Of a stretch of 37,371 nucleotides of DNA, positions 2,567 through 37,156 are shown one piece after another. The notes under the pieces are model-generated. The model worked only from the letters and a program-made list of their open reading frames with translations. It was not told the origin of the DNA and searched no databases. Source of the DNA: a virus; the IMG/VR virus record IMGVR_UViG_3300045988_009599; one strand, 5' to 3'. Position 1 is the first letter of the stretch. Every line of letters begins with the position of its first letter. Both the position numbers and the translations under genes were made by a program.

Positions 2567-3255
2567 AAATGTCGGATCGTAAACCTGATGTGCCACGCCG
2601 CACGATCGGATCTTCCGATCTGTGCGTGCGCTGCGGGAAAGAGTACATTGTAACTGGGCCCAGGCAGAAATATTGCCCTGGCTGTGCACAGCATCGTAAT
2701 CCCAACCGTAAAATAGGCGGCACTGGAATTTGCGTTAACTGCGGGAAGGAGTATATTATAACCTCCCCCGCGAAAATGCTGTGCCCGGATTGCGCGCCGA
2801 AATATAAGCCAAGACTCCACTCGGTCGCTGCCGACGCCATCGATGGAGCGGCCCACCGGCAGCTCGGGTCCGTTTCCATCTGCTTGCAGTGTGGCAAAGA
2901 GTATGTCGTGCTAAGCGGACGGCAGAAATATTGCCCTTTGTGCTCCGTTTCGATCTCAAGGAGATTGGGTCCACCGCGTCCGCATCCTAAAAAGCAAAAG
3001 CATCCAGATAAAAAGCGTCACACCACTGTGAGCGATTCGCTCTGCGAGCCTGCCCGTACATTGTTGGGGCTTCTCGACCGATACGGCATATCCCAGCGCC
3101 GATTTGCCGAGTATTTTGGCATCGATGTGACGCTCGTCAACAGGTGGTGTACCGGGACGCGCAAGTGCCCGGAGTATGTGGTCAATATGGCTGCAAAAAT
3201 TTTGTCCTTCTCGGCGCAGGAGCTGCAAGACGTCGAGACGGAAGATCATGATTAA
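2557..3255 (+). CDS. Triple zinc-ribbon + C-terminal HTH protein, 232 aa (start TTG 2557 or ATG 2569)
   Basis: Three repeats of C-x2-CGKEY...(Y/L)CP-x-C. C-terminal HTH GISQRRFAEYFGIDVTLVNRWCTGTRKCPEYVVNMAAKIL is paralogous to 1917-2255. Confidence 0.7.
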   Translation: MLLKMSDRKPDVPRRTIGSSDLCVRCGKEYIVTGPRQKYCPGCAQHRNPNRKIGGTGICVNCGKEYIITSPAKMLCPDCAPKYKPRLHSVAADAIDGAAHRQLGSVSICLQCGKEYVVLSGRQKYCPLCSVSISRRLGPPRPHPKKQKHPDKKRHTTVSDSLCEPARTLLGLLDRYGISQRRFAEYFGIDVTLVNRWCTGTRKCPEYVVNMAAKILSFSAQELQDVETEDHD

Positions 3256-23245: not shown

Positions 23246-24013
23246 TTAAATAAGGCGGCTCCCGGTCCGCTTGCGTTCTTCTTTTGGATCTCTTACATAT
23301 TTATATATCTGTAAGCCGTACTGCGTGGTACGGGCCTCGACGAGGATATAGCCTCGCGGAGCGACCGGCGGGTGCTTGGGGCTGTACTCGCGCACGGCTT
23401 CGGTCGCAGGCTCCGGCTCCGGCCTGACGCAGTTGCGGCTCGCTTTCCATCGGTGGCCGCCGAACTCCTTGCGCCAGTGGCCGTGCAGATAGTTGGCCAG
23501 CGCCGTGTAGTCCTGCCCGTGGTCGACCTTGTTTCCGTTTTCGTCTAAGTAATAGTTGCGCCTCCGCAGCGGCTTGCAGTCGATCACGCTGCCATATCCC
23601 CACAGCTTGCCGATTGCCTCCGGCGGAATGCCATCCGAGATCATGTGCAGGTGGAATCTGCTGGTTGATTTCCCCTGGCCGTAAACCACAACGATCTTTG
23701 CATCAGGGTAATTATATGTAAGGCGGCGATAATACCGGTCCCGGAGCTTTCGCATCTCGGCGGCGGTATGTACCTCATTCTCCGTATCGAGCGTCAGTGT
23801 GGAGTAATAAGATGTTGGTCCGAAGTTGGCATTGACCAGCGTTTCCAGGCGGCTGGCTGAGACTTTGCCGTTAAACTCGTCGCGCTCTGCCTTCGTCTGA
23901 AAGCGCGGCCTGCGCGGCTTGCTGGCCTTGATCTCCGTGCCGTCCGCGACGGTATACACGATCTGCTTGCATACATGCCCGGCAAATATCCGGCGTTTAC
24001 ATCTCTTTACCAT
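23246..24013 (-). CDS. HUH-superfamily rolling-circle Rep-like protein, 255 aa
   Basis: Internal ATG at 24011-24013 has a GGATGGAG RBS. Three motifs are spaced as in RCR Reps: YSTLTLD (motif I-like), RFHLHMI (HUH), ALANYLHGH (Tyr motif candidate). Confidence 0.55.
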   Translation of the reverse strand: MVKRCKRRIFAGHVCKQIVYTVADGTEIKASKPRRPRFQTKAERDEFNGKVSASRLETLVNANFGPTSYYSTLTLDTENEVHTAAEMRKLRDRYYRRLTYNYPDAKIVVVYGQGKSTSRFHLHMISDGIPPEAIGKLWGYGSVIDCKPLRRRNYYLDENGNKVDHGQDYTALANYLHGHWRKEFGGHRWKASRNCVRPEPEPATEAVREYSPKHPPVAPRGYILVEARTTQYGLQIYKYVRDPKEERKRTGSRLI

Positions 24014-24026
24014 ACTCCATCCTCTT

Positions 24027-24677
24027 TTATACAAATAGTGATAGCTGCGCCGTATGCGCGGCGAAGCGCTCCTCTTGTGCTGCAAAATAATCCTTATCGA
24101 TCTCGCACCCCACGAAATCCAGCCCTGCGTCATACGCCGCGATCCGACTGCTCCCGCTCCCGAGGTGTGTATCGAGGATCTTATCTCCAGGTTTTGCGTA
24201 CCGAGCGAAGATCCACGCATAGAGTGCAATGGGCTTTTGCGTTGGGTGAATACGTATCTCCTTGTTTTTTACACTCTCTTGCAGCATCCCTTGCCAGCGA
24301 TATTTGAATTTTCTGACCGCCGACTTGAATGATGTGTACGCAAGTTCGCAATCCGCGAAGTAGTTATCGCCGTTGTCTTTGTCCCACACGATCCAGCATG
24401 GGCTGTCTTTTTGCGTAATCTTCGACATAAAATAGTTGGCGCCAAATATAACCTGATTTTTGGATACTCTTTCGAGCTCCTCAAAGTATCCTTTCTCCGG
24501 CGGCTGCTTGTCCCAATCTTTTTTTGTAAAATTAGTGTTTTTTGCCAGGACGCTCCCGCCTATTACTCCGCCGTCCATCCCGATCCCATATGGAGGATCG
24601 ACAACCGCAAGATCAAACGTCTTGTCCTGTAGCGTCCGCATATACTCCATACAGTCCATGTTGTACGCAATGTTCAT
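24027..24677 (-). CDS. Orphan DNA methyltransferase, beta-class N6-adenine/N4-cytosine type (DPPY)
   Basis: 216 aa. Motif order VVDPPYG ... HPTQKP ... DTHLGSGSS. No restriction endonuclease gene is nearby. Confidence 0.85.
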   Translation of the reverse strand: MNIAYNMDCMEYMRTLQDKTFDLAVVDPPYGIGMDGGVIGGSVLAKNTNFTKKDWDKQPPEKGYFEELERVSKNQVIFGANYFMSKITQKDSPCWIVWDKDNGDNYFADCELAYTSFKSAVRKFKYRWQGMLQESVKNKEIRIHPTQKPIALYAWIFARYAKPGDKILDTHLGSGSSRIAAYDAGLDFVGCEIDKDYFAAQEERFAAHTAQLSLFV

Positions 24678-25900: not shown

Positions 25901-26290
25901 TCAGATTTCCACGCACTCATTGGCGCGGATATTGATCCGTTTTCCACCGGACTGGATCACATATCCTGCGTTTTTGAGTTTGTTCGGGCCGTACTTTTCT
26001 GCGGCATGCTCCGATCCGACGGTCGGCTGGTATTCCGGGTCGACCGGCACTTTGCATATGATGCGGATGCGCACCATCGTGTGCGGCAGGCGGCGCGGCT
26101 CCTCCGGCTTCTGTGGCTCCGGCGTCGTGTTCATCGCAGCCATTCTGGCGCGCCGCTCTATGTGCTGCGCGATCGACGCGCAGGAGCGGCTGCAATAATA
26201 CCTCCCGCTCTTATTCTCGTTTGCCTTTCCGAGCGTCCGCAGAAACTTCTTCCCGCACAGCTCGCATTTCAGTTCCACGTATTGTTCCAT
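25901..26290 (-). CDS. Hypothetical early protein with N-terminal CxxC...CxxxC, 129 aa
   Basis: MEQYVELKCELCGKKF...YYCSRSC. AAAGG-type RBS. Confidence 0.55.
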   Translation of the reverse strand: MEQYVELKCELCGKKFLRTLGKANENKSGRYYCSRSCASIAQHIERRARMAAMNTTPEPQKPEEPRRLPHTMVRIRIICKVPVDPEYQPTVGSEHAAEKYGPNKLKNAGYVIQSGGKRINIRANECVEI

Positions 26291-26727
26291 GGCTTTCTGT
26301 CCTTTCTTTGGTCAGGGGCCGGTATCCCGGCCCCCGGCAGTGGACGGCCTCGCACCGCCTGCGCCCGCGCTGCCCCAAGTCCGATCCTGCGCGGGCGAGC
26401 CGCCCTTGTCTGCGTCGGGCTGCTTTTGAGGGAGGTTCACCATGCCCCCGGGTGCGTAAAGCCCGGGAGTGGGGTAACGTTTTCCGGCACGTTCCACACC
26501 GTTTTATCCCCGCCCGCAGGCTTGAGGGGTCCTGCGGGCGGGAATCCCCAGCCGATTCCGAGCCCAGCATCGCGGGTCGGAATCGGAAAGGAAGAAGGAG
26601 CCTGCGGATATGGAGCTTTCGGCTTTCGCCGGAAGCGGAATGGAACAGGCTTCTTCTGACGCAAAGCCGGGGTGATCCTTCCGCCGGTGTCTCATGGCAA
26701 AGCGTCGGCGGCATAAGCCCACAAAAA
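26291..26727 (-). other. 437-nt GC-rich, hairpin-dense non-coding tract (candidate structured RNA or replication origin)
   Basis: No credible ORF here; all candidates are R/P/G-rich. Perfect stems: 26315-26334 (8 bp), 26362-26397 (9 bp), 26509-26542 (12 bp), 26552-26586 (10 bp), plus CCCGGG pairs at 26447-26467. Confidence 0.5.
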
Positions 26728-26952
26728 TTATGTATCCCCGGCTGATTGCTGTGGTTTCTGGCAGCCCGGCTGCACACCTACGTGCTTGCCATACTTGCCA
26801 TCCTCTCCCTGCTCAAGCGGCAGGGTCTTTCTTCGGGCCTGCTCAGCCGCGTTCCAGCCGCAGCCCTCGCAAAATTCACTGCCCAGTGCTGCCATCATGC
26901 AGGATCTGGCGCTCTTTGGCAGCATGCACTGCTCGTTTTTTTCGTCGTCCAT
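26728..26952 (-). CDS. Small Cys-rich protein, 74 aa
   Basis: ATG lies 7 nt after GGAGG and 2 nt after the upstream gene's stop. C-x..C...C-x2-C pattern. Confidence 0.55.
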   Translation of the reverse strand: MDDEKNEQCMLPKSARSCMMAALGSEFCEGCGWNAAEQARRKTLPLEQGEDGKYGKHVGVQPGCQKPQQSAGDT

Positions 26953-26954
26953 GC

Positions 26955-27389
26955 TCAAACCTCCTGTATATCGATCCCGTATTTGGATCGCATGAATTTT
27001 TTGTTGCGCAGATACTCCTTCGTCCGCGTCGCCATGGACTTGACGTCCTCGACGACCAGCTTGCCGCCGAAGCGGTACGAAAAGTCCGCCGTGTACCGGA
27101 TCGCGCGGATTCGCTCTCCGGTCTCTGTCACATAAGATTCCTGCAGCGTGAATTGCGGCTGCAGCCGCAGCTCCGTGATGATCCCGGCCCGCAGCATGGT
27201 CATCAGCTCATCATACCTGCGTGCCTCCTTCTGGCTGTCGAACCGAACCCCGGCCCGCTCGGCTGGCGTACTGTGATACTTCGTGCCCTTCTTCGGCCCC
27301 GCGTCAGCCCCCGGCATCTGCTGCCGTGCATAAAGCTCCCGCATCCTCAACGGCATGTCCGCCATGGATTCAAACCGCAGTCCGCTCAT
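26955..27389 (-). CDS. DUF1064-like endonuclease (phage resolvase-like)
   Basis: 144 aa. ...GVRFDSQKEARRYDEL...IRYTADFSY...VVEDVKS..T... matches the DUF1064 pattern as I remember it. Confidence 0.75.
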   Translation of the reverse strand: MSGLRFESMADMPLRMRELYARQQMPGADAGPKKGTKYHSTPAERAGVRFDSQKEARRYDELMTMLRAGIITELRLQPQFTLQESYVTETGERIRAIRYTADFSYRFGGKLVVEDVKSMATRTKEYLRNKKFMRSKYGIDIQEV

Positions 27390-30070: not shown

Positions 30071-30254
30071 TCCGCTTGCCCTCCATCGCCCGCTCGGTCT
30101 CCTCGCGGGTCAGGAATACGGTCTTGCCGATTTCATTAGCGTTTATGCCATGCCGATCTTGGGTTTCTCCGACCTTGCAGTTTTCGCACGCGTCGTCGTG
30201 CCCAAGCCCCTTCGCGCAGCACCGCAGTGCCTTCACGATTTCATCACTTGTCAT
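30063..30254 (-). CDS. Small Cys-containing protein with GKTVFLTREE motif, 63 aa
   Basis: The C-terminal EIGKTVFLTREETERAM is shared with 28343-28900. Confidence 0.5.
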   Translation of the reverse strand: MTSDEIVKALRCCAKGLGHDDACENCKVGETQDRHGINANEIGKTVFLTREETERAMEGKRNA

Positions 30255-31123
30255 GTTTCATCCTCCATCCCTTCAAATACCATCTGCCCAGGCAGAACGC
30301 CGTCTTCGAGCCACCAGTGCATCACGTCCTCGCCGGTCTGCCACTCACACGGAAGATCTCGCTTGCGCCGTTCGTCCAGCATCCTGCCGAACGCTCGGAT
30401 ATACGCGGCCTTGATCTTTGGATAGCGTGCAAACTCCACCTTCCGGTGCTTGCCTGCCATTGGGCACCCAATGCACCCCACGCGCTTCCATCCGCATTCA
30501 TACAGCGGATTCATGCAGATCTTTTCGGCAGATGCGTAGTCCAACACATCAGATTCCGTCCAGTCGATGATTGGATTGATCGTCCGCGTCCCCTTGAGCT
30601 GGCAGTTTTCCATCAGCATGCGGCTTTCGTCATTGTCGTTCATCAGCGTCAGCCGCTTGTCCTTGCTCTTATGCAGTGCTTCCATAACGCCGCGAGATTT
30701 CCGCTTTTGTGATTCCGCCCAGCGAACGCCAGTTGCAATCCATCTTCCTTTCCCACCGCCTTCTTTGAGTTCTGCGCAGCAGTAGCGCACCAGGCGTGTC
30801 GGCGGCATCAGCTTGCGCGGGATCAGGTTCCACATCGTCACGTTCCCGCCGTCCGGCGTCCGGTGCGTATCGATGTCGCATTTTACGCCAGCCAGCTCCA
30901 AGCGGCGGAAGGTATCCCGCACATGCCAGACAGTCTCCGGCGCGTCCGCCGTGGTCAGCGAATGCAAAACCTCATACTGGATACCGGCTTTGCCCGCCAG
31001 ATGCAAAAGCACGTCCGAGTCCTTGCCGCCCGAGTATGTAATCACAATCGGCTGCTTGTACAGGCGCAGGCTCATATCCGAGGCCATCCGCAGCCGCTCA
31101 ATCGCGGTTTGTTCTAAGTCCAT
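30251..31123 (-). CDS. PAPS-reductase-family (PP-loop ATP pyrophosphatase, DndC-like) protein
   Basis: 290 aa. PP-loop YSGGKDSDV. Cys pairs RYCCAELK and GCIGCP suggest an Fe-S site. Confidence 0.8.
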   Translation of the reverse strand: MDLEQTAIERLRMASDMSLRLYKQPIVITYSGGKDSDVLLHLAGKAGIQYEVLHSLTTADAPETVWHVRDTFRRLELAGVKCDIDTHRTPDGGNVTMWNLIPRKLMPPTRLVRYCCAELKEGGGKGRWIATGVRWAESQKRKSRGVMEALHKSKDKRLTLMNDNDESRMLMENCQLKGTRTINPIIDWTESDVLDYASAEKICMNPLYECGWKRVGCIGCPMAGKHRKVEFARYPKIKAAYIRAFGRMLDERRKRDLPCEWQTGEDVMHWWLEDGVLPGQMVFEGMEDET

Positions 31124-33396: not shown

Positions 33397-33529
33397 ATTG
33401 TCACGACAATTTACTGCCGCGTTTTGTATTGTGACTACACTGTACCACCCTTTTTGTGTTTTGTCAATACATTTATGCAAAATATTTTTACCGTTTTTGT
33501 ATTGACAATACACTTGCCTCGTGTATAAT
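33397..33529. promoter_or_regulatory. Divergent lysis-lysogeny switch with operators sharing a TTGTCAAT/ATTGACAA core and two promoters
   Basis: Palindromes ATTGTCACGACAAT (33397-33410) and GTATTGACAATAC (33499-33511). Half-site copies at 33424-33436 and 33461-33470. Rightward promoter TTGACA 33502-33507 / TATAAT 33524-33529. Leftward promoter TTGACA (rc of 33462-33467), 17 nt, TACAGT (rc of 33439-33444). Confidence 0.7.
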
Positions 33530-35042: not shown

Positions 35043-35537
35043 ATGAGATTTTTTGAGAAATCCGCATTTTCTGGATTTTCATTTTTGGAAAGGATCGTGG
35101 AAACCTTGGAAACCTGTGAAAATCGCATCCGTTCAGAGCGTTTGTCTCGCGGCATGACGCTGAACGATCTGTCCGACGCCTCCGGCGTTTCCGTCGCCAG
35201 CCTCTCGCGCTATGAGCGCGGCTGCGACGTCCCTTCGTCCGCTCTGCACCGGATCGCGGACGCGATGGACACGGACAGCGCCGTGCTGCTGGACCAGCCG
35301 GATAAAATGCCGCGCATCGCCGAGCTTGAGCTGCGGCTCAAGCATGCTAAAGCGATCATTTCCAAGCAGGAACAGATCATCCGCCAGAAGTCCGTCGAGG
35401 CGCGGCGCAAGGATGTTTTGATCGGCGTGCTTGTGTGCATCGTTCTCGTCTCGCTTCTGGCGCTCCTCGTCGACCTTTGTAATCCCAATATCGGCTGGGT
35501 CCGCGCCTCCGCGCTTGCATCCTTTGTGCCCGTATAA
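35043..35537 (+). CDS. Membrane-anchored XRE-family HTH protein (start uncertain)
   Basis: HTH LSRGMTLNDLSDASGVSVASLSRYERG, a coiled segment, then TM VLIGVLVCIVLVSLLALLV. ATG 35043 lacks an RBS. In-frame TTG/GTG alternatives lie 14-21 codons downstream of it. Confidence 0.65.
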   Translation: MRFFEKSAFSGFSFLERIVETLETCENRIRSERLSRGMTLNDLSDASGVSVASLSRYERGCDVPSSALHRIADAMDTDSAVLLDQPDKMPRIAELELRLKHAKAIISKQEQIIRQKSVEARRKDVLIGVLVCIVLVSLLALLVDLCNPNIGWVRASALASFVPV

Positions 35538-35566: not shown

Positions 35567-37156
35567 ATGAAATTTACATCTACCTGGAAAATCGCCGACC
35601 CGCTCTCGCAGTATATCATTTACCTTCGCAAGTCCCGGAAAGACATGGACGCCGAAGCCCTCGGCCAGACCGACACGCTCAAGCGGCACAGAGCCGCGCT
35701 TCTGTCTCTTGCCGAGAGCCGCGGTCTTAATATCGTTGAGATCTGTGAGGAGGTCGTGACCGGTGATTCCATCGCCGTCCGGCCGGAGGTGCAAAAGGTG
35801 CTACAGCTTGTGGAGACCGGCGCGTACGCAGGCGTCCTGGTCATGGAGGTCGAGCGTCTTGCCCGCGGCGACACAATCGACCAGGGCATCATTGCGCAGA
35901 CCTTTAAGTACTCCAACACCATGATCATCACGCCGAATAAGTCCTACGATCCAAACAATGATATGGACGAGGAGTACTTTGAGTTCGGACTTTTTATGTC
36001 CCGCCGCGAGTACAACACCATCAAGCGTCGCCTGACACGCGGCAAAGAGGCGTCCATCCGCGAGGGGAAATGGATCTCCGGCAAGACGCCCTTCGGCTGG
36101 CTGCGGGAGAAGATCCCGAACGATAAAGGCTACATGCTCGTCCCACATCCGGAGCAGGCCCCGATCCTGCGGCAGATCTACGACTGGTACACCGGCGATG
36201 GCTGCGTCCGTGTCGGCTCGTCTGCGATCGCCACGCGCCTGAATCGTCTCGGTGTCCAAACAAATACCGGCAGCCGCTGGACTGCCAGCGCCATCCTTGA
36301 GGTCCTGCGCAATCCGGCAAACGCTGGCTGGATCAAGAGCAAGGGGCGCCCGGAGATCAAGCATATCGTCGACGGCTCCGTCGTCGTCAGCCGCCCCCGC
36401 GCCAGAATTGAGGATCTGACGCTTCACAAGGGCCTGCACAACGGGCTTATCTCGCAGGAGCAGTTCGACCGGGCCGTTGCCCTGAGTTATTCCACAGCCA
36501 GCCCGCGCGGAAAGGGCGCATGGAAAACCGCGACCAGTCTTGCTGGCCTCGTGCGCTGTGACCAGTGCGGCCGCATCATGGTCCGCCGGGCGACATCCGG
36601 TGGCCGAAAAGACACATTTCTGTGCCCCTCGTATGGCTGCACCACCGTCAGCGCATGGTACGACGAGGTTGAGGCAGCTGTTCTCGATGCGCTCCGCGGT
36701 TGGTTGCATGAGTTGGAGGTCGGCGAAGCCGCTTCCGCGGATGACAGTTCTCTTCTCAGCGCCCTGTCCTCCGCCATTTCCGCCGATCAAAAGCAGCTTG
36801 CCAAACTGGAGGCGCAGGAAACCCGCGCCTACGAATTTGTCGAGACCGGCGTCTACACGCCTGAGGTTTTCCTCCAGCGCTCGCAGTCGCTGGCAGCCGA
36901 CAAGCTGGCTATCCTTTCGCGCATTGATGAGACCCAGCGTGCCATTGACGATATCGACCGTGCAAAGCAGGCGCGTGCCCGTCTCGCCCCTGCCGTCCGC
37001 CACGTGCTCGAAACCTACCCTCTCGCCGGATCTGTGCAGGAGCAGAACGATCTGCTGAAAACCGTCCTGCAAAAGATCGTCTACCACAAACAGTCCAAAT
37101 CCTACAGCAAAGCCGGCAGCGACATGCGCGTCACCCTGTACCCCCTCACAGATTGA
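35567..37156 (+). CDS. Large serine recombinase (phage integrase)
   Basis: 529 aa. N-terminal resolvase domain (YLRKSRKD catalytic Ser context, VMEVERLARG), recombinase domain, Cys4 zinc ribbon (CDQCG...CPSYGC), C-terminal coiled coil. Confidence 0.9.
   Translation: MKFTSTWKIADPLSQYIIYLRKSRKDMDAEALGQTDTLKRHRAALLSLAESRGLNIVEICEEVVTGDSIAVRPEVQKVLQLVETGAYAGVLVMEVERLARGDTIDQGIIAQTFKYSNTMIITPNKSYDPNNDMDEEYFEFGLFMSRREYNTIKRRLTRGKEASIREGKWISGKTPFGWLREKIPNDKGYMLVPHPEQAPILRQIYDWYTGDGCVRVGSSAIATRLNRLGVQTNTGSRWTASAILEVLRNPANAGWIKSKGRPEIKHIVDGSVVVSRPRARIEDLTLHKGLHNGLISQEQFDRAVALSYSTASPRGKGAWKTATSLAGLVRCDQCGRIMVRRATSGGRKDTFLCPSYGCTTVSAWYDEVEAAVLDALRGWLHELEVGEAASADDSSLLSALSSAISADQKQLAKLEAQETRAYEFVETGVYTPEVFLQRSQSLAADKLAILSRIDETQRAIDDIDRAKQARARLAPAVRHVLETYPLAGSVQEQNDLLKTVLQKIVYHKQSKSYSKAGSDMRVTLYPLTD

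What the first reader, a model, noticed from the sequence alone, without database searches (positions are those of the whole stretch)
26291..26727. 437-nt GC-rich, hairpin-dense non-coding island inside the early operon
The early operon is otherwise tightly packed, often with overlapping stops and starts. This interval has no credible ORF in any frame; every candidate is R/P/G/A-rich and lacks an RBS. It contains at least four perfect stems: 26315-26334 (8 bp, tetraloop), 26362-26397 (9 bp), 26509-26542 (12 bp, cccgcccgcagg/cctgcgggcggg) and 26552-26586 (10 bp, ccgattccga/tcggaatcgg). CCCGGG pairings also occur at 26447-26467. Candidate explanations are a large structured phage ncRNA of the kind found in Firmicutes prophages, a replication origin for the HUH Rep-like protein (nick-site hairpin and single-strand-origin-like folds), or a decayed intron or mobile RNA. 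I found no tRNA-like T-loop and no riboswitch core that I recognise.
Basis: partly seen in the sequence, partly recalled or inferred. Interest (0 to 1): 0.7.

Follow-up and report, generated by a model that had tools for sequence, protein, structure and literature searches.

The report
New large structured RNA in gut phages

Summary
No reading frame is conserved.

The element lies on the minus strand, the sense strand of the early operon, at 26749 to 26314 (436 nt). That is a core of about 320 nt plus a lineage-specific two-hairpin insertion of about 115 nt (26546-26660).

I found 233 homologous copies in IMG/VR, human-gut metagenomes and Oscillospiraceae/Clostridiales MAGs. All sit between a DUF1064 gene plus a small Cys4 protein gene and a variable downstream gene. 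They share nine helices (P1-P9). Of 90 modelled pairs, 27 show changes on both sides. 92-99% of cells are paired, against 35-50% for slid controls. G·U outnumbers A·C about 4-5:1, so one strand folds.

There is no Rfam match at gathering score and no tRNA.

- **Best reading (about 0.4):** a new large structured RNA embedded in the operon mRNA that gates translation of the downstream block, using a conserved anti-Shine-Dalgarno CCUCCUU.
- **Rivals:** a trans-acting ornate ncRNA like ROOL or GOLLD, or a single-strand replication origin for the phage's HUH Rep.
- **Rejected:** decayed gene and intron.

Function is inferred, not shown.

The parts
26314..26749 (-). Whole conserved structured element (436 nt here; core 320-406 nt in relatives, up to 628 nt with insertions)
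   Evidence: nhmmer and CM matches in 233 loci. The 5' edge GCAAUCAGCC and the 3' hairpin are defined by where conservation begins and ends.
26661..26749 (-). 5' domain. P1 (26736-26749 paired with 26661-26672) encloses a U-rich hairpin P1a (26721-26733) and P2 (26681-26711, loop GCCAU). It also holds a conserved GGAAGGAUCA (26673-26682) and an RSB-like TTATGCCG (26709-26716).
   Evidence: 99% of cells are paired in model R1. G-C to G-U changes occur in P1. A-U, G-U and C-G alternate in P2.
26546..26660 (-). Lineage-specific insertion module: two hairpins, one with a GAAA tetraloop (CGGCGAAAGCCG). It is absent from most relatives.
   Evidence: The gap is seen in L003-L006. The same module occurs at a second site, the P5 loop, in L014, L087 and L136, with a covarying second hairpin.
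26509..26542 (-). P3, a 12-bp hairpin with the invariant loop motif CCUCAAGC
   Evidence: 9 of 11 pairs have changes on both sides. Loop conservation is shown.
26469..26499 (-). P4 (GUGUGGAACGU / ACGUUACCCCAC). Relatives carry an extra internal hairpin, P4a.
   Evidence: Compensatory A-U to G-C and G-C to A-U changes
26446..26468 (-). P5 hairpin (UCCCGGG / CCCGGGG)
   Evidence: The stem sequence differs completely between clades while pairing is kept; 6 of 7 pairs change on both sides. Variant stems are listed from the alignment.
26425..26445 (-). J5/6 linker with the conserved anti-Shine-Dalgarno-like CCUCC(U/C)U
   Evidence: Conserved in all clades. It is predicted to pair with the downstream SD in 41 of 55 representatives; in this window the probability is only 0.21.
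26398..26424 (-). P6 hairpin with the invariant loop GA..GCAG(A/U)CAAGGG
   Evidence: This motif was used for the genome and metagenome scans.
26362..26397 (-). P7, a 9-bp hairpin. It is extended by P7a, with a G(A/U)CAAGCG loop, in clades C and D.
   Evidence: The stems differ between clades: CGCCCGCGC/GCGCGGGCG, CGCCUGCG/CGCAGGCG and CGCCCGG/CCGGUGCG.
26338..26361 (-). P8: a stem closed by G-C with the 7-nt loop UGCGAGG. The family pattern is U-G-N-R-A-G-N, which fits a T-loop or a GNRA loop.
   Evidence: 164 of 166 members keep UGNRA, with N taking all four bases. Pair 76/90 switches among G-C, A-U and G-U. Weak local match to the twister-sister P4 hairpin.
26314..26335 (-). P9, the 3' terminal hairpin GGGGGCCGG-GAUA-CCGGCCCCU. 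No U-tract follows it.
   Evidence: No terminator is called on the minus strand.
26288..26313 (-). Conserved GAC(C/G)AAAG...GGA Shine-Dalgarno region and the ATG (26288-26290) of the downstream gene (129 aa, 25901-26290). That gene belongs to at least four different families across relatives.
26728..26952 (-). Upstream small Cys4 protein (74 aa; motif CxxCGWNxxE..RR.ALPL). It lies immediately 5' of the element in 101 of 113 loci.
   Evidence: There are only 30 clusters among 5.8 billion proteins, and no Pfam match.
23246..24013 (-). HUH Rep-like protein (FHLHMISDG). Homologues carry PF23343 REP_ORF2-G2P. It lies about 2.2 kb downstream in the same orientation.

Best explanation
The interval is one member of a new family of large structured RNA. 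The family is encoded on the sense (minus) strand of the early operon of a prevalent lineage of temperate human-gut Oscillospiraceae phages.

The element has no promoter or terminator of its own, so it would be transcribed inside the polycistronic mRNA. It sits flush between the stop codon of a small Cys4 protein gene and the ribosome-binding site of the next gene.

It folds into a 5' three-way-junction domain (P1, P1a, P2). Hairpins P3-P9 follow, carrying invariant loop motifs: CCUCAAGC, GCAGNCAAGGG, and a UGNRA T-loop/GNRA-type loop.

The mechanism I think most likely is inferred, not shown. The element acts in cis as a translational gate for the gene block downstream, which leads on to the methylase, the HUH Rep and the packaging genes. 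A conserved anti-Shine-Dalgarno CCUCCUU in the P5/P6 linker pairs with the downstream SD and closes the 3' domain. A conserved SD-like G(G/A)AGGA in the 5' domain offers a competing partner. The state of the 5' domain would then decide whether the real SD is free. That state could be set by an unknown ligand, by the neighbouring small Zn-finger-like protein, or by ribosomes terminating at the adjacent stop codon.

I put about 0.75 on 'functional structured RNA on this strand' and about 0.4 on the cis-gate mechanism.
For: - **Conservation and synteny.** 233 loci carry the element and 166 unique full-length copies were recovered. Pairwise identity goes down to 60%. The position after DUF1064 and the small Cys protein is constant.
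- **Selection.** Among close relatives the element is 96-98% identical, while the next gene's protein is 82-88% identical.
- **Structure.** RNAalifold on a plain MAFFT alignment gives 73 pairs, 16 of them with compensatory changes. On CM alignments, 99.0, 91.6 and 92.0% of cells are paired, against 35-50% when partners are slid by 1-3 columns. 27 of 90 pairs change on both sides. 0 of 500 shuffles reach the observed covariation score.
- **Strand.** G·U versus A·C cells are 255:52 on CM alignments and 139:32 on MAFFT alignments.
- **Non-coding.** No frame is conserved, and indels are not multiples of three.
- **RNA-type loop.** UGNRA is kept in 164 of 166 members, with N free.
- **Cis features.** No sigma-70 promoter or intrinsic terminator is found on the minus strand around the element. 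The nearest strong early promoter is about 7 kb upstream. The conserved block runs through the SD even where the downstream ORF belongs to at least four unrelated families.
- **SD pairing.** The predicted probability that the SD pairs with the CCUCCUU linker averages 0.72 over 55 representatives, and 41 have P > 0.5. Mean P(SD paired) is 0.85, against 0.55 for 25 other genes of the window.
Against: - There is no expression data, so whether a discrete RNA exists is untested.
- In this window's own copy the linker reads CCUCCCUC. The predicted SD-linker pairing is only 0.21, and P(SD paired) is about 0.5, the same as background.
- The SD/anti-SD pair cannot covary, so it has no covariation support.
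- The regulated gene is not conserved, which is unusual for riboswitch-like leaders.
- A ~320-630 nt RNA with optional modules is large for a simple SD-masking device. That size fits a trans-acting ornate RNA equally well.
- The family is phylogenetically narrow: about 10 clusters at 90% identity and an effective number of about 13. Inherited changes therefore inflate cell counts, and pseudoknots could not be resolved.
- Single-stranded DNA of the same strand would give the same covariation and the same G·T bias.
Confidence: 0.4

Rival explanations
1. A trans-acting, stable 'ornate' non-coding RNA. It would be cut out of the operon transcript and act as an RNA-only assembly or as an RNP, for example with the adjacent Cys4 protein. 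This resembles ROOL and GOLLD, which are phage-encoded and of unknown function.
For: - The element is large, multi-domain and has well-supported covariation.
- Optional structured modules are added at peripheral sites.
- CAAG-containing loop motifs recur in P3, P6 and P7a, which could be binding sites.
- The small Cys4 protein is restricted to this lineage and is always adjacent.
- ROOL and GOLLD are phage or prophage RNAs of unknown function (PMC12286853).
Against: - No own promoter or terminator was found.
- The spacing to the downstream SD is constant, and the SD lies inside the conserved block.
- The window has no tRNA genes, whereas ROOL and GOLLD are often near tRNA islands.
- No Rfam match to ROOL, GOLLD, OLE, raiA or HEARO.
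- Adjacency to the Cys4 protein may be plain synteny within a narrow lineage.
Confidence: 0.25
2. A single-strand (complementary-strand) replication origin that functions as folded ssDNA. It would be analogous to the sso of rolling-circle plasmids or the minus-strand origins of ssDNA phages. It would prime lagging-strand synthesis after the phage's HUH Rep displaces the sense strand.
For: - A Rep-like HUH protein (FHLHMISDG; homologues carry PF23343 REP_ORF2-G2P) is conserved about 2.2 kb downstream in the same orientation in 71 loci.
- No helicase, primase, DnaD-type or polymerase gene was recognised in the early region.
- The fold is strand-specific, as an sso must be (PMC5703833).
- An 8-nt match to the start of the ssoA RSB motif, TTATGCCG of TTATGCCGAGAAAATTT (PMC4598088), is present in 100 of 166 members.
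Against: - The second defining ssoA motif, CS-6 TAGCGT, is absent from 166 of 166 members, and the RSB-like 8-mer is not invariant.
- No promoter-like site lies inside the element.
- Rep homologues of about 53% identity occur in other phages that lack the element.
- The element is 2-4 times larger than the ~160-nt ssoA cited for pT181-family plasmids (PMC5703833). It also shows RNA-typical features: a UGNRA loop and modular peripheral hairpins.
- Its conserved block includes a ribosome-binding site.
- From general knowledge, no sso is known in a tailed dsDNA phage.
Confidence: 0.17
3. A self-cleaving ribozyme (a twister-sister-like variant), or a double-strand origin or nick-site cruciform for the Rep.
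For: - Weak partial Rfam match of P7-P8 to twister-sister RF02681: 22.8 bits and E = 0.013 in L053, 15.4 bits in L250.
- The hairpin loops carry CAAG, whose complement CTTG recalls the CTTG/ATA nick site of pC194- and phiX174-type Reps. This is from memory, not tested.
Against: - The scores are below the gathering score of 34.
- Only model positions 15-64 of 81 match, and P1, the L1 cleavage loop and P2 are missing.
- The window itself gives no such hit at E <= 10.
- CTTGATA is not found in or near the element or rep on the sense strand and is not enriched.
- A strong G·U bias argues against a symmetric dsDNA cruciform.
Confidence: 0.05
4. A degraded protein-coding gene, a decayed intron or mobile element, or a chance cluster of GC-rich hairpins.
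For: In this window long R/P/G/A-rich ORFs span the region on both strands: 188 aa on the minus strand, 210 and 270 aa on the plus strand.
Against: - No frame stays open across the family, and 1-2 nt indels lie inside the best-conserved stretch.
- The element is more conserved than its coding neighbours.
- Covariation supports the helices.
- Both flanking genes are intact, with their own start signals.
- There are no intron or ribozyme matches in Rfam.
Confidence: 0.02

Closest known systems
ROOL (RF03087) and GOLLD (RF01998), large ornate phage or prophage RNAs
   Same: Both kinds are phage-encoded, several hundred nucleotides long and made of many covarying helices. Both have variable peripheral regions, no known protein partner and no known function (PMC12286853).
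   Different: There is no sequence or structure match in Rfam. This element is smaller. It is not next to tRNA genes. It is embedded between ORFs of an operon and abuts an RBS. It is confined to one phage lineage of gut Oscillospiraceae.
Translational riboswitches and T-box-type leaders that mask the Shine-Dalgarno sequence
   Same: The element lies directly upstream of an RBS. It has a conserved anti-SD predicted to pair with the SD, a competing SD-like segment, and a T-loop-like hairpin.
   Different: It sits between cistrons about 7 kb from the promoter, not in a 5' leader. The downstream gene is not conserved. There is no match to any riboswitch or T-box model, and the ligand is unknown.
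ssoA-type single-strand origins of rolling-circle plasmids
   Same: Both are strand-specific, hairpin-rich, non-coding segments in a replicon that encodes an HUH Rep in the same orientation. The element shares the 8-mer TTATGCCG with RSB.
   Different: CS-6 is absent. The element is 2-4 times longer and GC-rich, and it has no promoter-like fold. Its host replicon is a ~40 kb tailed phage. Its conserved block includes an RBS.
Twister-sister self-cleaving ribozyme (RF02681)
   Same: They share a hairpin of the form GNCGG-UGNRAGN-CCGNC next to short helices. Such ribozymes are also common in phage-like contexts (general knowledge).
   Different: The match is below the gathering score. The catalytic internal loop and P1/P2 are not found. 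The element is about four times larger.

Membership tests
Any Rfam 15 family (4227 models, including ROOL, GOLLD, OLE, raiA, HEARO, riboswitches, T-box, ribozymes, RNase P, tmRNA, 6S, pRNA) | Covariance-model score at or above the family's gathering score | tested here: not met
   There are no matches at gathering score in the window or in five relatives from four clades. At E <= 10 only scattered sub-threshold hits appear.
ROOL / GOLLD | Encoded in phages or prophages, often beside tRNA islands | tested here: inconclusive
   The phage or prophage context is met: integrase, terminase and portal are present. The tRNA neighbourhood is not met, since ARAGORN finds no tRNA in the window.
ROOL / GOLLD | Homo-oligomeric RNA nanocage | not testable with these tools
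   This needs cryo-EM or native gels of the transcript.
Structured functional RNA (generic) | Helices maintained by compensatory substitutions beyond what controls give | tested here: met
   27 of 90 pairs change on both sides. 92-99% of cells are paired, against 35-50% for slid controls. 0 of 500 shuffles reach the covariation score. A plain MAFFT alignment with RNAalifold independently gives 16 of 73 pairs.
Structured functional RNA (generic) | Transcribed, with the structure on the transcribed strand | tested here: inconclusive
   The G·U:A·C ratio of 255:52 and 139:32 puts the fold on the operon sense strand. Transcription itself was not measured.
ssoA-type single-strand origin | RSB motif TTATGCCGAGAAAATTT | tested here: inconclusive
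   Only the first 8 nt (TTATGCCG) match, in 100 of 166 members. Variants read CATATGCCG and CTTTGGCCG.
ssoA-type single-strand origin | CS-6 motif TAGCGT in a hairpin loop | tested here: not met
   TAGCGT is absent from 166 of 166 members.
ssoA-type single-strand origin | Orientation-specific element in a replicon with an RCR (HUH) initiator | tested here: met
   The Rep-like HUH protein is on the same strand in 71 of 71 loci that hold it. The fold is strand-specific.
ssoA-type single-strand origin | Supports RNA-polymerase-primed lagging-strand synthesis on ssDNA | not testable with these tools
   This needs ssDNA accumulation assays and primer mapping.
Twister-sister ribozyme | P1 - internal loop with cleavage site - P2, plus a junction with P4 and P5, scoring at or above 34 bits | tested here: not met
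   The best hit is 22.8 bits and covers model positions 15-64 of 81 only. The window gives no hit.
SD-sequestering cis-regulatory RNA | Immediately upstream of the regulated RBS, with a conserved anti-SD able to pair with it | tested here: inconclusive
   Position and a conserved CCUCC(U)U are met in all clades. The predicted pairing probability averages 0.72 over 55 representatives but is 0.21 in this window. The background P(SD paired) is 0.55.
SD-sequestering cis-regulatory RNA | Consistent class of regulated gene | tested here: not met
   The downstream gene belongs to at least four unrelated families.

The most novel reading that the evidence does not exclude
The element is a new class of large, complex-folded phage RNA: a sensor or ribozyme-grade fold with a T-loop/GNRA motif and optional plug-in domains. 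It would gate the transition from early genes to the Rep and packaging block in one of the most common temperate phage lineages of human-gut Oscillospiraceae.

A second reading is equally novel. It could be the first dedicated single-strand replication origin described in a tailed dsDNA phage that replicates with an ssDNA-phage-type HUH Rep.
Probability: 0.3. Interest if true: 0.8.

Novelty: new variant of a known kind. Interest (0 to 1): 0.62.

Why it matters
Large RNAs with many conserved helices are rare in bacteria and phages. Those studied so far have turned out to be ribozymes, elaborate sensors or unexpected RNA assemblies (ROOL, GOLLD, OLE).

This element is abundant in human-gut metagenomes. 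Some of the contigs are about 40 kb phage genomes at more than 500x coverage. Its hosts are so far known only from metagenome-assembled genomes.

A defined alignment, a structure model and exact boundaries make it directly testable by transcript mapping, probing, reporter assays and origin assays.

Whichever reading is right, the result bears on how a prevalent gut phage lineage with almost no recognisable replication genes controls or starts its replication and packaging programme. One caveat applies. A 2023 bulk survey predicted 10,006 unnamed candidate structured RNAs in IMG/VR (PMC10690425). It may already list this element; I could not check its tables.

Tried and rejected
- **Rfam.** Searched at gathering and at E <= 10 on the window and on relatives. 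Nothing usable was found.
- **ARAGORN.** No tRNA or tmRNA.
- **Protein-coding reading.** Rejected.
- **Phage GenBank collection.** Only two unannotated faecal fragments matched.
- **Mutual information for pseudoknots and long-range pairs.** The effective number of sequences is about 13 and the signal is dominated by phylogeny, so it was abandoned.
- **Candidate tertiary pairings.** I examined these by eye: the U-rich P1a loop with the A-rich J3/4, the CAAG loops with GCUUG, and the 5' GGAGG with CCUCC. None had consistent covariation, so none is claimed.
- **Small Cys4 protein.**
  - No Pfam, PHROG or NCBIfam hit.
  - Only 30 clusters, all unnamed.
  - The AlphaFold model has pLDDT 54, too poor for a fold search.
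  - Its CxxCG...RR.ALP motif recalls DksA/TraR zinc fingers. That is from memory only and no profile hit supports it.
- **ssoA membership.** CS-6 is absent.
- **pC194/phiX-type nick motif CTTGATA.** Not in or near the element and not enriched.
- **Element as an obligatory partner of the Rep family.** Rejected. Rep homologues in L262-L265 lack it.
- **Processive-antiterminator idea.** No convincing minus-strand terminators lie downstream in the operon.
- **Apparent tandem copies on one MAG contig (L132, L134).** These are the same site in overlapping loci.
- **The 'partial' copy in L117.** It is a contig end.
- **2023 csRNA catalogue.** Its supplements are not held, so prior listing could not be checked.
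Full report
**Setting**

The genes around the finding lie on the minus strand. They belong to the early operon of a temperate phage. A serine integrase (35567-37156, +) and a repressor-like gene (35043-35537, +) lie at the right end. Divergent consensus promoters sit at 33439-33529.

The minus-strand operon then runs through:
- many small genes,
- a PAPS-reductase-like gene, YopX, ASCH and DUF4406,
- a DUF1064/Holliday-junction-resolvase-like gene (26955-27389),
- a small Cys-rich ORF (26728-26952),
- the gap that is the subject of this finding,
- a 129-aa zinc-finger-like gene (25901-26290),
- further small genes and an N6/N4 methylase,
- an HUH Rep-like gene (23246-24013, FHLHMISDG).

In a relative, the small and large terminase genes follow.

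**The observation**

The 437 nt fold more stably than dinucleotide shuffles on either strand: z = -4.57 and -4.96, with 0 of 100 shuffles as good. The long ORFs that cross the region in this window are R/P/G/A-rich and are not conserved.

**Relatives**

The flanking 129-aa protein retrieved four IMG/VR phages. In these the gap is 96-98% identical to the window, while that protein is only 82-88% identical. Those phages lack about 115 nt of the window (26546-26660), and they show 1-2 nt indels inside the best-conserved stretch.

Two unannotated faecal phage fragments are about 72-80% identical, with hairpins of different length. Motif scans then added:
- 9 contigs of uncultured Oscillospiraceae/Clostridiales/Eubacteriales MAGs, plus one chance hit in Pseudomonas,

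In total, 233 loci hold the element. There are 166 unique full-length copies of 358-628 nt, in about 10 clusters at 90% identity, with a minimum pairwise identity of 60%.

**Synteny**

Synteny is constant. DUF1064 is upstream in 94 of 113 loci and the small Cys protein in 101 of 113. A conserved 136-aa gene lies at about +0.75 kb, and the Rep-like gene lies at about +2.2 kb in 71 loci. All are on the same strand as the element. The gene immediately downstream belongs to at least four unrelated families. Gene callers leave the gap empty in related contigs.

**Not coding**

No frame is open across the family, and lengths fall in all three classes mod 3.

**Structure**

The conserved block starts at GCAAUCAGCC (26749). 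That is at or just after the upstream stop codon in most clades, and 20 nt before it in this one. The block ends with a hairpin at 26314, followed by a conserved GAC(C/G)AAAG..GGA ribosome-binding region.

Nine helices recur:
- P1, enclosing P1a and P2, forms a 5' three-way junction.
- P3 has the loop CCUCAAGC.
- P4 carries P4a in most relatives.
- P5.
- P6 has the loop GA..GCAG(A/U)CAAGGG.
- P7 carries P7a in two clades.
- P8.
- P9.

RNAalifold on a plain MAFFT alignment of 35 representatives gave 73 pairs, 16 of them with compensatory changes.

I then built three covariance models on sub-regions with hand-checked structures. I realigned 74 diverse loci to them and counted pairs.

| Measure | Result |
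|---|---|
| Cells paired (three models) | 99.0%, 91.6%, 92.0% |
| Cells paired with partners slid 1-3 columns | 35-50% |
| Pairs changed on both sides | 27 of 90 (10 + 11 + 6) |
| Shuffles reaching the covariation score | 0 of 500 in each case |

P3 (9 of 11 pairs) and P5 (6 of 7 pairs) are the most convincing. P1, P2, P6 and P9 are mostly invariant or vary by G-C to G-U.

Two caveats apply. The family is narrow, so many counted cells are inherited. The CM alignments also lean towards the model. The MAFFT-only result and the slid controls answer part of that concern.

**Which strand folds**

G·U cells outnumber A·C cells 255:52 on the CM alignments and 139:32 on the MAFFT alignments. One strand folds, and it is the operon sense strand. 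A symmetric double-stranded cruciform is therefore unlikely. RNA and single-stranded DNA of that same strand remain possible.

**RNA-type details**

The P8 loop is U-G-N-R-A-G-N in 164 of 166 members. N takes all four bases and R is only A or G. That pattern fits a T-loop, or a GNRA tetraloop closed by U·G.

This hairpin accounts for a weak, partial Rfam hit to twister-sister: 22.8 bits and E = 0.013 in L053, and 15.4 bits in L250, against a gathering score of 34. The hit does not include the catalytic loop or P1/P2. No other Rfam family comes close, and there is no tRNA or tmRNA.

**The insertion**

The window's extra 115 nt form two hairpins, one capped by a GAAA tetraloop, inserted between P1 and P3. 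The same module also occurs in the terminal loop of P5 in L014, L087 and L136. There its second hairpin has a different but still complementary stem. It behaves like an optional plug-in RNA domain.

**How it may work**

No sigma-70 promoter or intrinsic terminator flanks the element on the minus strand, so it should be part of the operon mRNA.

A CCUCC(U)U stretch is conserved in the otherwise variable P5/P6 linker. An SD-like G(G/A)AGGA is conserved in the 5' domain.

In partition-function folds of 55 representatives, the SD of the downstream gene pairs with that linker with mean probability 0.72, and 41 have P > 0.5. Mean P(SD paired) is 0.85, against 0.55 for 25 other genes of the window. 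This holds across different downstream genes.

That is the basis for my preferred model. The element would be a cis-acting translational gate whose 5' domain, through an unknown signal, decides whether the anti-SD is engaged.

The model is weak in several places:
- The window's own copy has CCUCCCUC and a pairing probability of only 0.21.
- SD/anti-SD pairs cannot covary.
- The regulated gene is not conserved.
- The RNA is much larger than such a switch needs.

**Rivals**

- **Trans-acting ornate RNA of the ROOL/GOLLD kind (PMC12286853).** This fits the size and modularity. It does not fit the tight coupling to the RBS or the lack of transcription signals.
- **Single-strand origin.** This deserves weight.
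  - For: the HUH Rep-like protein (homologues carry PF23343 REP_ORF2-G2P) is the only recognisable replication protein I found. It is co-oriented with the element. An sso must be strand-specific (PMC5703833). The element also shares TTATGCCG with the ssoA RSB motif (PMC4598088).
  - Against: CS-6 is absent from all members, and the 8-mer is present in only 100 of 166. Rep homologues of about 53% identity occur in other phages without the element. The nick-type motif CTTGATA is neither nearby nor enriched.
- **Degraded gene, intron or chance.** These readings are rejected by the data above.

**Comparison and novelty**

The element is not a member of any Rfam family, of the ssoA type, or of the twister-sister class; defining features were tested and not met. 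It most resembles, in kind, the large ornate phage RNAs of unknown function, and in layout, SD-masking leaders.

I file it as a new variant of a known kind: a new family of large structured phage RNA in an unusual intercistronic setting. A bulk catalogue of 10,006 candidate viral structured RNAs exists (PMC10690425). It may contain this element unnamed. Its tables were not available.

**Verdict**

- The structured, conserved, non-coding nature of the element is well supported.
- The strand is assigned.
- The function is inferred only.
- Interest is 0.62.

Noticed in passing
window 26546-26660 (-); L014:2745-2860 and about 2930-3060; L136: A ~115-nt two-hairpin module with a GAAA tetraloop is present in the window between P1 and P3. 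Most relatives lack it. In L014, L087 and L136 the same module also sits in the terminal loop of P5, with a covarying second hairpin. It looks like a plug-in or mobile RNA domain.
   Followed up: partly
L053:7795-7845 (-), L250:3194-3222 (-); equivalent to window 26338-26397: There is a sub-threshold partial match to the twister-sister ribozyme (RF02681): 22.8 and 15.4 bits against a gathering score of 34. It is driven by the P8 hairpin GNCGG-UGNRAGN-CCGNC. The catalytic loop and P1/P2 are not matched.
   Followed up: partly
window 23246-24229 (-): The ORF called from TTG at 24229 overlaps the methylase gene. The real Rep-like protein probably starts at the ATG at 24013 (MVKRCK...). It has an HUH motif (FHLHMISDG), and homologues carry PF23343 (REP_ORF2-G2P), a domain of ssDNA-phage-type rolling-circle initiators. 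It sits just upstream of the packaging genes and is the only recognisable replication protein in the prophage.
   Followed up: partly
L263:1569-1922 and L264:3809-4164: Other phages carry a ~53%-identical Rep homologue followed by a 355-nt non-coding region. That region folds into a ~140-nt hairpin containing CATTGTCAAGGG/CCCTTGATAATG. The sequence includes CTTGATA, the nick consensus of pC194- and phiX174-type Reps (from memory). It is a candidate origin for that Rep family and is not homologous to the element studied here.
   Followed up: partly
window 26728-26952 (-): The small protein just upstream has four conserved cysteines and the motif CxxCGWNxxE..RR.ALPL. It occurs in only 30 protein clusters, all from this phage lineage, and has no family assignment. 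The motif recalls DksA/TraR-type zinc fingers (from memory; no profile hit). The AlphaFold model was too poor to use (pLDDT 54).
   Followed up: partly
window 33439-33529: Back-to-back consensus promoters lie here: TTGACA-16-TATAAT on the plus strand, and TTGACA-17-TACAGT with an upstream TG on the minus strand. They probably form the lysis-lysogeny switch region and the start of the ~13-kb early operon that contains the element.
   Followed up: no
window 26709-26716 (-): TTATGCCG at the 5' base of P2 equals the first 8 nt of the ssoA RSB motif (TTATGCCGAGAAAATTT). It is present in 100 of 166 family members and could be chance.
   Followed up: yes
window 30251-31123 (-): A PAPS-reductase/DndC-like protein (phrog_424) is encoded in the early operon of this prophage.
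   Followed up: no
metagenome loci L138-L257: Many contigs that carry the element are 35-48 kb long, and some have very high coverage (up to about 558x). This suggests complete genomes of an abundant, actively replicating human-gut phage lineage.
   Followed up: no
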